Shown: positions 39,965-40,990 of the stretch, in pieces
Layout: each line of letters begins with the position of its first letter
Numbering within the stretch: position 1 is the stretch's first letter
Assembly (NCBI GenBank): GCA_009914755.4
Contig: CP086569.2
Span: forward strand, 20,256,001-20,320,000
From: the human T2T-CHM13v2.0 reference genome, Homo sapiens
Length of the DNA stretch: 64,000 nt
Reading direction: 5' to 3'
The notes under the pieces: generated by a model
What the model saw: only the letters and a program-made list of their open reading frames with translations
What the model was told of the DNA's origin: nothing
The model's database searches: none
Translations under genes and position numbers: made by a program

Positions 39965-40990
39965 GTAGTATTTTAGTGTGTGTGTATATATATATGGTGT
40001 GTACATATATATGTAGTATTTTGTGTATATATATGGTGTGTGTACATATATATGTAGTATTTCATATATATGCAGTATTTTGGTATGTGTTTATATATAT
40101 ATGGTGTGTGTACATATATATGTAGTATTTTGTGTATATATATGTAGTATTTTGGTGTATGTGTATATATATGATGTATGTGTATATATATGTAGTATTT
40201 TGGTGTGTGTGTATACATACATATATACATGTATATACACACATATATGTATGTATGTATGTGTACATATATGTATGTATGTGTACATATATGTATGTAT
40301 GTGTACATATATGTATGTATGTGCACATATATGTATGTATGTGTACATGTATGTATGTATGTGTACATATATGTATGTATGTGCACATATATGTATGTAT
40401 GTGTACATATATGTATGTATGTGTACATATATGTATGTATGTGTACATATATGTATGTATGTGTACATATATGTATATATGTATGTGTACATATATGTAT
40501 GTATGTGTACATATATGTATGTATGTGTACATATATGTATGTATGTGTACATATATGTATGTATGTGTACATATATGTATGTATGTATGTGTACATATAT
40601 GTATATATGTATGTGTACATACATATGCACTTCCATATATACATGGATAAATATACACACACCAAAATACTACATATATATACATACACCATATATATAT
40701 ACTCACACCAAAATACTACATATATATACACAAAATACTACATATATGTACACACAGCATATATATACACACACACCAAAATACTACATATATAAATACA
40801 CCATATATATACACACACCAAAATACTACATATATATACACAAAATACTACATATATGTACACACACCATATATATATACACACACATCAAAATACTACA
40901 TATATATACAAAATACTACATATATATATACACACCATGTATATACACACCAAAATACTACATATATATACATATACAAAATACTATATA
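39965..40990. repeat. ~1-kb palindromic AT-rich compound minisatellite
   Basis: The left arm (39965-40210) is tandem ~40-bp units 'tgtgtatatatatggtgtgtgtacatatatatgtagtatttt'. The core (40210-40620) is about 20 copies of 'gtatgtatgtatgtgtacatatat'. The right arm (40620-40990) is tandem units 'caccaaaatactacatatatatacacaaaatactacatatatgtacacacaccatatatatatacacaca', the reverse complement of the left-arm unit. It sits at the 3' end of the antisense L1 that starts at 41000. Confidence 0.85.

What the first reader, a model, noticed from the sequence alone, without database searches (positions are those of the whole stretch)
39965..40990. 1-kb palindromic AT-rich compound minisatellite with inverted ~40-bp tandem arms
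The left arm is tandem units of 'tgtgtatatatatggtgtgtgtacatatatatgtagtatttt'. The right arm is tandem copies of the reverse complement ('aaaatactacatatat..acacacaccatatatatacaca'). The core is about 20 copies of 'gtatgtatgtatgtgtacatatat'. This is a large inverted repeat built from minisatellite units. Such palindromic AT-rich repeats can extrude hairpins or cruciforms, are hard to clone and sequence, are copy-number unstable, and at other loci mark recurrent translocation breakpoints. It lies at the A-tail end of the antisense L1 at 41000-47390, so it probably grew out of the L1 3' tail. It also creates spurious 170-330-codon stop-free 'ORFs' on both strands.
Basis: seen in the sequence. Interest (0 to 1): 0.55.

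Follow-up and report, generated by a model that had tools for sequence, protein, structure and literature searches.

The report
Inverted minisatellite born inside an L1
A 1-kb block of short repeats, whose right end is a mirror-image copy of its left end, grew out of a 23-base motif in the coding region of an old, dead L1 retrotransposon in a primate genome; it is a real but ordinary kind of junk-DNA repeat and lacks the defining features of the palindromes that cause recurrent chromosome translocations.

Summary
Window 39965-40998 is a compound tandem array. The left arm (39965-40205) has 7 GTAGTATTTT anchors, all on the + strand. The central array is 18 copies of a 20-nt unit (not 24 nt). 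The right arm (40646-40998) has 10 anchors, all reverse-complemented.

The whole left arm aligns in mirror order with 40660-40899 at 86% identity, about 20 SD above shuffles. As single-stranded DNA the region folds at -286 kcal/mol against -199 +/- 6 for shuffles.

The L1 is antisense, but the array is not at its A-tail. It interrupts ORF2 between residues about 1213 and 1227, roughly 335 bp from the L1 3' end. The units derive from the L1's own motif ATAGTATTCCATGGTGTATAT, which is intact in seven other L1 copies in the window.

It is not PATRR-like: 75% AT, 86% arms, and a spacer of about 430-450 nt. The centre is an uninterrupted 428-nt purine/pyrimidine alternation.

Best reading: a TE-derived minisatellite that underwent a fold-back inverted duplication, followed by a recent central expansion. 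It is probably length-polymorphic and has no evident function. No orthologous or population data could be reached.

The parts
39600..39964 (-). 3' end of the host L1: the last ~48 codons of ORF2, the 3' UTR, AATAAA and a degenerate A-rich tail, read on the minus strand
   Evidence: Minus-strand translation matches human L1 ORF2p residues 1227-1260. T-rich tail and TTTATT seen on the + strand at ~39600-39632.
39965..40205 (+). Left arm: 6 full units (48, 41, 18, 50, 22, 48 nt), each starting with the anchor GTAGTATTTT, in the native orientation of the L1 antisense strand. The first anchor is the L1's own GTAGTATT.
   Evidence: The left flank joins co-linearly with other L1 copies.
40206..40261 (.). 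Inner junction of the left arm. It contains the longest perfect palindrome of the region (TATATACATGTATATA, 40222-40237) and the start of the 428-nt purine/pyrimidine alternation (40203-40630).
40262..40630 (+). Core: 18 tandem units of TGTACATATATGTATGTATG. Fourteen are 20 nt, three are 24 nt and one is truncated; 11 are identical. All are TG-rich on the + strand. The only substitutions are 3 transitions. This is a young expansion that acts as the spacer between the arms.
   Evidence: TRF period 20, 17.6 copies, 93% matches. Unit table. GC skew.
40631..40659 (.). Strand-switch junction TTCCATATATACATGGATAAATATACACA. Read on the minus strand, TCCATGTATATATGG resembles the native L1 TCCATGGTGTATATG. 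It is the only unit that keeps the CCAT(G) lost from all the other units.
   Evidence: local alignment, and unique occurrence of TTCCAT and ATGGA within the array.
40660..40998 (-). Right arm: 9 full units (read on the minus strand, outer to inner: 26, 42, 20, 48, 22, 42, 46, 22, 46 nt) with the anchor reverse-complemented (AAAATACTAC). Positions 40660-40899 mirror the whole left arm. The three outermost units are an extra higher-order (~110 nt) duplication.
40999..47390 (-). Body of the host L1: ORF2 up to about residue 1222, then ORF1 and the 5' UTR. It is decayed and carries a nested Alu.
   Evidence: ORF2p residues 866-1213 at E 1e-42. Weak RVT_1 and L1 ORF1 dsRBD Pfam hits. ORF1-like and ORF2-like translations. 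5' end at ~47390.

Best explanation
This is a transposon-derived compound minisatellite with no evident function. Steps marked 'shown' rest on tool results; steps marked 'inferred' do not.

1. Origin (shown). An old, nearly full-length L1 lies on the minus strand at about 39600-47390 in a primate genome. It carries the partly repetitive motif ATAGTATTCCATGGTGTATAT(GT) at the ORF2 codons for W-H-I-Y-T-M-E-Y-Y. This motif was duplicated in tandem after losing CCA. That produced 22-nt short units (GTAGTATTTT+GTGTATATATAT) and 41-50-nt long units (the anchor plus two GGTGTGTGTAYATATAT sub-repeats).

2. Inversion (copy shown; mechanism inferred). A block of at least 240 nt of this array was then copied in inverted orientation next to itself. 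The most likely route is a replication fold-back: the nascent strand snaps back at one of the many short TACATATATGTA / TATACATGTATA palindromes, copies itself, and returns to the template at TATATA microhomology. This leaves both L1 flanks in their original orientation.

3. Later changes (inferred from identity levels). The arms diverged to 86% identity. The right arm gained an extra ~110-nt higher-order copy. Most recently, a 20-nt unit expanded to 18 nearly identical copies at the centre, pushing the arms about 430-450 nt apart.

4. Present behaviour (inferred from literature). As single-stranded DNA, for example a lagging-strand template or a resected end, the arms can pair over about 217 bp and the core folds on itself. 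Replication slippage and length polymorphism are therefore likely. In duplex DNA, cruciform extrusion and PATRR-type breakage are unlikely given the spacer, the 14% arm divergence, the 75% AT content, and a longest perfect palindrome of only 16 nt.
For: - L1 position: ORF2p residues 866-1213 lie to the right of the array and 1227-1260 to the left, on the same strand.
- Seven other L1 copies in the window read straight through ATGGCTGCATAGTATTCCATGGTGTATATGTGCCACATTTTCTT. Both flanks of the array align to that sequence on either side of the motif.
- The units align to the native 23-mer with a 2-3-nt CCA deletion.
- Anchor strandedness is 7 on + and 10 on -.
- Mirror-order alignment gives 86% identity, about 20 SD above shuffles. 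The unit-length order is kept in mirror: 48 / 41+18 / 50 / 22 / 48 versus 48 / 22+42 / 46 / 22 / 46.
- The core is far more homogeneous than the arms: 11 of 18 units are identical and only 3 transitions are seen.
- Fold energies and the flipped-arm control.
- Structural thresholds from the literature: IR-induced recombination falls 300-fold when the spacer grows from 12 to 100 bp and is lost at 75% identity in duplex DNA, yet IRs of >=75% identity remain active in ssDNA (PMC10164571).
- TE-derived tandem repeats are common: 7,276 in the human genome (PMC3389668). Internal L1 proto-repeats are known to seed repeats (PMC3812793).
Against: - The fold-back mechanism is inferred from the final structure only; no intermediate or orthologous state was seen.
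- The order of events rests on identity levels in sequence that mutates by slippage, so 86% is not a reliable clock.
- The right arm has three more units than the left, which needs an extra step (a duplication on the right or a deletion on the left).
- None of the seven other L1 copies in the window shows any expansion at this site, so the motif is not an obvious hotspot.
- Instability and polymorphism were not tested.
Confidence: 0.75

Rival explanations
1. One reading: an AT-rich palindrome that grew out of the L1 poly(A) tail and behaves like the PATRRs that mediate recurrent translocations.
For: The array is next to L1 sequence, is AT-biased (75%), is an inverted repeat, and folds strongly as ssDNA.
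Against: L1 ORF2 and the 3' UTR continue for ~335 bp beyond the array. The units derive from an internal ORF2 motif, not from A-runs. PATRRs are >90% AT, nearly perfect and spacerless (PMC4940405). Here AT is 75.4%, the arms are 86% alike, the spacer is about 430-454 nt, and the longest perfect palindrome is 16 nt.
Confidence: 0.03
2. Two-element origin: a second L1 fragment inserted head-to-head, and the same motif expanded independently in each copy, giving two oppositely oriented arrays.
For: The window is packed with L1 fragments in both orientations. The inner edge of the right arm keeps a native-like TCCATG relic in inverted orientation.
Against: No L1 sequence of inverted orientation flanks the right arm; both flanks are co-linear parts of one ORF2 (residues ...1213 and 1227...). 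Independent expansions would not reproduce the same order of long and short units in mirror image at 86% identity.
Confidence: 0.05
3. Assembly or sequencing artefact: a fold-back chimeric long read, or a mis-assembly of a one-directional array.
For: Such repeats are hard to assemble, and fold-back chimeras do create false inverted duplications.
Against: The arms differ by 14% with several indels and have different unit counts, whereas an artefact would give near-identical arms. There are no Ns in the window.
Confidence: 0.03
4. Chance self-complementarity of low-complexity TA/TG/CA sequence, with no true inverted duplication.
For: Dinucleotide shuffles of the region still fold at about -199 kcal/mol, and the core is 72% self-complementary.
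Against: The non-palindromic 10-mer anchor is strictly strand-segregated, 7 versus 10. The alignment score is ~20 SD above shuffles. There are 0 direct versus 589 inverted 12-mer matches between the arms.
Confidence: 0.01
5. A functional element: a transcribed long hairpin (dsRNA or small-RNA source), or a Z-DNA-forming regulatory or boundary element.
For: About 217 potential arm-arm base pairs, and a 428-nt uninterrupted purine/pyrimidine alternation.
Against: No Rfam family matches the window. The array sits inside a decayed L1 in an L1-dense, AT-rich stretch. The arms are drifting apart (86%) with no sign of compensatory conservation. There are no expression or conservation data.
Confidence: 0.03

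Closest known systems
Transposable-element-derived tandem repeats / minisatellites (Ahmed & Liang 2012, PMC3389668) and internal L1 proto-microsatellite births (Grandi & An 2013, PMC3812793)
   Same: The array lies wholly inside a TE. Its unit is homologous to a short internal stretch of that TE. It arose after insertion, because other copies of the TE lack it.
   Different: Part of the array has been duplicated in inverted orientation, so it is mirror-symmetric. It is also compound, with three levels: 17-19-nt sub-repeats, 22/41-50-nt units and ~110-nt higher-order repeats, plus a separate 20-nt central array.
Palindromic AT-rich repeats (PATRR11, PATRR22, PATRR17, PATRR8; PMC4940405, PMC1851657)
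   Same: An AT-biased inverted repeat several hundred bp long, able to form a long hairpin.
   Different: PATRRs are >90% AT, nearly perfect and spacerless. Here AT is 75%, arm identity is 86% with indels, the arms are unequal, and the spacer is about 430-454 nt. No translocation is known at this locus.
AT-rich minisatellites of the rare fragile sites FRA10B (~42 bp) and FRA16B (33 bp) (PMC9714581, PMC2875025)
   Same: Unit size of ~41-50 nt in the arms, AT bias and secondary-structure potential.
   Different: The fragile-site arrays are ~91% AT, uninterrupted, and fragile only when expanded to several kb (>5 kb for FRA10B). This array is 1 kb, TG/CA-containing and inverted.
Diverged, spaced inverted repeats such as inverted Alu pairs (Lobachev laboratory; PMC10164571)
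   Same: Arms of ~240-350 nt at 86% identity, separated by hundreds of bp. By those data this class is weak in duplex DNA but competent for fold-back in long ssDNA.
   Different: The arms here are internally repetitive, so they can pair in several registers (anti-diagonals at ~40432 and ~40484). The spacer is itself quasi-self-complementary.
Alternating purine-pyrimidine (Z-DNA-prone) compound TG/TA microsatellites
   Same: A 428-nt uninterrupted R/Y alternation made of TA, TG and CA steps.
   Different: About half the steps are TA, which favours Z-DNA poorly (own knowledge). No experimental evidence here.

Membership tests
PATRR (palindromic AT-rich repeat) | Several hundred bp in length | tested here: met
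   Arms of 241 and ~350 nt; the whole array is ~1030 nt.
PATRR (palindromic AT-rich repeat) | More than 90% A+T (PMC4940405) | tested here: not met
   75.4% AT overall; 74-76% in each of the three blocks.
PATRR (palindromic AT-rich repeat) | Nearly perfect palindrome | tested here: not met
   86% identity with gaps (215/249) and unequal arms. The longest perfect palindrome is 16 nt.
PATRR (palindromic AT-rich repeat) | No spacer between the arms | tested here: not met
   About 430-454 nt of one-directional core lie between the mirrored parts.
PATRR (palindromic AT-rich repeat) | Located at translocation breakpoints, with breakage at the palindrome centre | not testable with these tools
   No human or primate genome or breakpoint resource is available. 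The sequence-string literature search found nothing.
TE-derived tandem repeat | Array embedded in a transposable element, with both flanks co-linear in that element | tested here: met
   ORF2p residues 866-1213 on one side and 1227-1260 on the other, on the same strand. Alignment to seven other L1 copies.
TE-derived tandem repeat | Repeat unit homologous to the TE sequence at the point of interruption | tested here: met
   Units align to the native TAGTATTCCATGGTGTATAT with loss of CCA. The first anchor is the L1's own GTAGTATT.
TE-derived tandem repeat | Arose after insertion, not carried by the TE family | tested here: met
   0 of 7 other L1 copies in the window that span the site have any expansion. 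No family consensus was available.
AT-rich minisatellite rare fragile site (FRA10B / FRA16B type) | ~33-42-bp unit, ~90% AT, uninterrupted | tested here: not met
   Unit size fits (41-50 nt), but AT is 75% and the array is compound and inverted (PMC9714581).
AT-rich minisatellite rare fragile site (FRA10B / FRA16B type) | Expansion to several kb with cytogenetic fragility | not testable with these tools
   This haplotype is ~1 kb. No population or cytogenetic data are available.
L1 twin-priming (5'-inverted L1) | The two L1 segments on either side of the junction lie in opposite orientations | tested here: not met
   Both flanks are on the minus strand and consecutive in ORF2.
Z-DNA-prone alternating purine/pyrimidine tract | Long uninterrupted R/Y alternation | tested here: met
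   428 nt (40203-40630). The next longest in the window is 38 nt.
Z-DNA-prone alternating purine/pyrimidine tract | Actual B-to-Z transition under physiological supercoiling | not testable with these tools
   TA steps make up about half the tract, which is unfavourable by general knowledge.

The most novel reading that the evidence does not exclude
The ORF2 motif ATAGTATTCCATGGTGTATAT, with its CCATGG core and flanking TA/TG runs, is present in hundreds of thousands of L1 copies. It could be a recurrent seed for fold-back inverted minisatellites. Loci like this one would then form an unrecognised class of L1-born quasi-palindromes. These would be length-hypervariable and could drive fold-back rearrangements whenever the region is single-stranded.
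Probability: 0.08. Interest if true: 0.5.

Novelty: new member of a known kind. Interest (0 to 1): 0.25.

Why it matters
The practical value is modest. The locus shows cleanly, step by step, how a short internal L1 motif can grow into a kilobase-sized, mirror-symmetric repeat, with the ancestral sequence preserved in both flanks and in sister L1 copies. The array is a plausible site of length polymorphism, of mapping and assembly trouble, and of spurious ORF calls. It should not be listed as a PATRR-like translocation hotspot. By published structure-instability rules, its spacer, arm divergence and composition place it among the weak inverted repeats, which matter only when the DNA is single-stranded.

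Tried and rejected
1. Orthologue or allele retrieval:
- Exact flank 24- and 30-mers found nothing in metagenome contigs or genome contigs.
- Exact look-up of the two longest spurious ORFs found no record.
- The search for homologous proteins with the 330-aa ORF returned 366 hits, all generic TG/TA-repeat 'proteins'. Only one of the top 120 carries a single anchor-coded peptide (VVFC, once, in P0052); none carries KILH, PKYY, QNTT, CSIL or SFFIN, so none is the same kind of array.

2. Search for similar arrays elsewhere. A three-anchor pattern returned 120+35 loci, all unrelated tandem repeats, mostly prokaryotic. Only L037, a marine contig, resembles the array: it has a 14-nt AAAATACTACATAT repeat but no L1 flanks, so the match is a coincidence.

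3. Pfam scan on the decayed L1 gave only sub-threshold RVT_1 and L1 ORF1 dsRBD hits. It was replaced by a PDB sequence search, which was decisive.

4. Rfam found nothing in the window.

5. A literature search for the repeat-unit strings found nothing.

6. Hypotheses considered and rejected: origin from the L1 A-tail, twin priming, nested inverted L1, assembly artefact and chance complementarity (see rival explanations).

7. Identity with FRA10B was considered because of the ~42-nt unit. It was rejected on composition (91% versus 75% AT) and could not be checked by sequence.

Full report
**What is in the sequence**

Reading 39600-41400 and running Tandem Repeats Finder shows a compound array from 39965 to 40998.

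- The non-palindromic 10-mer GTAGTATTTT (<=1 mismatch) occurs seven times on the + strand, only between 39965 and 40192.
- Its reverse complement AAAATACTAC occurs ten times, only between 40664 and 40978.
- Between these lies a 20-nt tandem array (TRF: 40250-40610, 17.6 copies, 93% matches).
- GC skew is strongly positive to about 40600 and strongly negative from about 40640.

**Is the inverted symmetry more than chance?**

Yes, on four tests.

- Alignment: a gapped local alignment of the left arm with the reverse complement of the right arm covers the whole left arm (39965-40205) against 40660-40899. It gives 215/249 = 86% identity and score 327. Dinucleotide shuffles score 120 +/- 10, and the direct orientation scores 26.
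- 12-mers: left-arm 12-mers recur in the right arm 589 times inverted and never direct. The strongest anti-diagonal is centred at about 40432, with a secondary register at about 40484. No other 1.4-kb stretch of the window has more than 38 such matches, against 738 here.
- Folding: as single-stranded DNA the region has an MFE of -286 kcal/mol with 217 arm-to-arm pairs. Shuffles give -199 +/- 6 (z about -15). Flipping the right arm gives -127.5.

The spurious ORFs (172-330 codons, both strands) are also there.

**Corrections to the description**

- The core unit is 20 nt (TGTACATATATGTATGTATG), not 24. There are 18 units: 14 of 20 nt, three of 24 nt and one truncated.
- The structure is not a palindrome in the strict sense. 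The arms are 86% alike and of unequal length.
- The arms are separated by about 430-454 nt of core that runs in one orientation throughout.
- The longest perfect spacerless palindrome is 16 nt, and the longest (TA)n run is 12 nt.

**Anatomy of the arms**

Splitting at the anchors gives the following unit lengths.

| Arm | Reading direction | Unit lengths (nt), outer to inner |
|---|---|---|
| Left | + strand | 48, 41, 18, 50, 22, 48, then a junction unit |
| Right | minus strand | 26, 42, 20, 48, 22, 42, 46, 22, 46, then a junction unit |

The order long / (short+long) / long / short / long / junction is kept in mirror image. A pre-existing array of at least 240 nt was therefore copied as a block in inverted orientation. 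The three outermost right-arm units have no partner on the left. They match the ~110-nt higher-order period that TRF finds in the right arm. Long units consist of the anchor plus two GGTGTGTGTAYATATAT sub-repeats; short units are the anchor plus GTGTATATATAT.

**Where it sits**

- Minus-strand translation to the right of the array matches human LINE-1 ORF2p (PDB 8sxt and others) at residues 866-1213, E 1e-42.
- Translation immediately to the left matches residues 1227-1260, E 8e-4.
- The L1 continues about 335 bp to a TTTATT / T-rich tail at about 39600-39632.
- Its 5' end is near 47390.
- ORF1-like and RT-like translations lie in between.

The array therefore replaces the codons for roughly W-H-I-Y-T-M-E.

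Seven other L1 copies in the same window read uninterrupted through ...TTTTTATGGCTGCATAGTATTCCATGGTGTATATGTGCCACATTTTCTTTATCC.... The left flank of the array aligns up to ...ATGGCTGAGTAGTATT, and the right flank resumes at ...TATATACAGCTTCTTTATC.

The units align to the native 23-mer with loss of CCA. The first anchor is the L1's own sequence. The innermost unit of the right arm still carries TCCATGTATATATGG on the minus strand, the only place in the array where the ancestral CCAT(G) survives.

The claim that the array grew out of the L1 3' tail is therefore not supported. It grew from an internal ORF2 motif.

The genome is a primate's. Five Alu matches are present. One Alu lies inside this L1. 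A near-consensus young primate L1 3' end lies at about 23820-24330; recognising it as such rests on my own knowledge.

**The centre**

Positions 40203-40630 are an uninterrupted 428-nt alternation of purine and pyrimidine. The next longest run in the window is 38 nt. Eleven of the 18 core units are identical, and the only substitutions are three transitions. The core is therefore much younger than the arms. It has pushed the arms apart, and it is centred on the same axis as the arms (about 40430).

**Most likely history and behaviour**

Shown:
- Origin from the L1 motif.
- Block-wise inverted duplication.
- A younger central expansion.

Inferred:
- The inversion arose by a replication fold-back. 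The nascent strand pairs with itself at one of the many 12-16-nt palindromes, copies the array backwards, and returns to the template at TATATA microhomology. This explains why both L1 flanks keep their orientation.

Published yeast data bear on behaviour. Recombination induced by inverted repeats in duplex DNA drops about 300-fold when the spacer grows from 12 to 100 bp, and disappears at 75% identity. In long single-stranded regions, repeats of >=75% identity and spacers of up to 30 kb remain active (PMC10164571).

With 86% arms and a spacer of about 430-450 nt, this array should be a poor cruciform former. It should still be able to fold back on a lagging-strand template or a resected end. 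The homogeneous core should be prone to slippage.

**Comparison with known classes**

- PATRRs are several hundred bp, >90% AT, nearly perfect and spacerless (PMC4940405). This array meets only the length criterion: AT is 75.4%, arm identity is 86%, and a spacer is present.
- FRA10B/FRA16B arrays are ~91% AT with 33-42-bp units, and are fragile when several kb long (PMC9714581). Only the unit size matches here.
- The best fit is a TE-derived tandem repeat, a class with thousands of human examples (PMC3389668). It was seeded by an internal L1 proto-repeat (PMC3812793) and has an added inverted duplication.
- It also qualifies as a diverged, spaced inverted repeat, and as a long alternating purine/pyrimidine tract.

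**What could not be done**

No orthologous or allelic sequence could be reached.

- Flank scans of the public contig collections were empty.
- ORF look-ups were empty.
- The protein-database search returned only generic low-complexity hits.
- Anchor-pattern scans returned unrelated repeats.
- No paper contains the unit strings.

Length polymorphism, age and any role in rearrangements therefore remain untested.

**Verdict**

It was mis-assigned as to origin: internal ORF2 motif, not the A-tail. Its hazard was over-read: it is not PATRR-like. It is a new example of a known kind of sequence, with low to moderate interest.

Noticed in passing
window 40203-40630: Uninterrupted 428-nt purine/pyrimidine alternation across the core. 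All variation between core units is by transitions or even-length indels. The next longest such run in the 64-kb window is 38 nt.
   Followed up: yes
window 42092-42122: T31 run (A31 in L1 sense) inside the same L1. It lies at the A-rich ORF2 codons corresponding to human ...NQKRA..., just upstream of [11 protein letters not shown]. This is a second internal simple-repeat expansion in this element. Further T runs of 17, 15 and 23 nt lie at 43162, 43927 and 45608.
   Followed up: partly
window ~43916-44225, minus strand: An Alu (translation [13 protein letters not shown]...KKKKRKKK) is nested inside the host L1. Five further Alu matches lie at 4413, 19479, 22377, 37936 and 38805. This marks the window as primate.
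   Followed up: partly
window 58648-58695: A pure A48 tract directly after AATAAAACCAGAAGTCTTT. It looks like the intact tail of a very young retrocopy or retrotransposon insertion.
   Followed up: no
window 23280-24330: A near-consensus young primate L1 3' end (from ~23820) abuts an older, diverged L1 fragment (23280-23820), both antisense. The young copy supplied the uninterrupted reference for the site of the array.
   Followed up: partly
window 4863-4947: A 33-nt tandem repeat, 2.6 copies, 100% identical (AGAGACTGATTATTTGTCTCTGAATGATGATTC).
   Followed up: no
window 2254-2493: 66-nt and 24-nt tandem repeats rich in CCAATCAGC motifs. They are reminiscent, from memory, of the internal repeats of LTR12-type LTRs.
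   Followed up: no
L037 4430-4546 (marine metagenome contig NODE_21699): A 14-nt tandem repeat AAAATACTACATAT that happens to share the anchor of the right arm. It has no L1 flanks and is judged a coincidence.
   Followed up: yes
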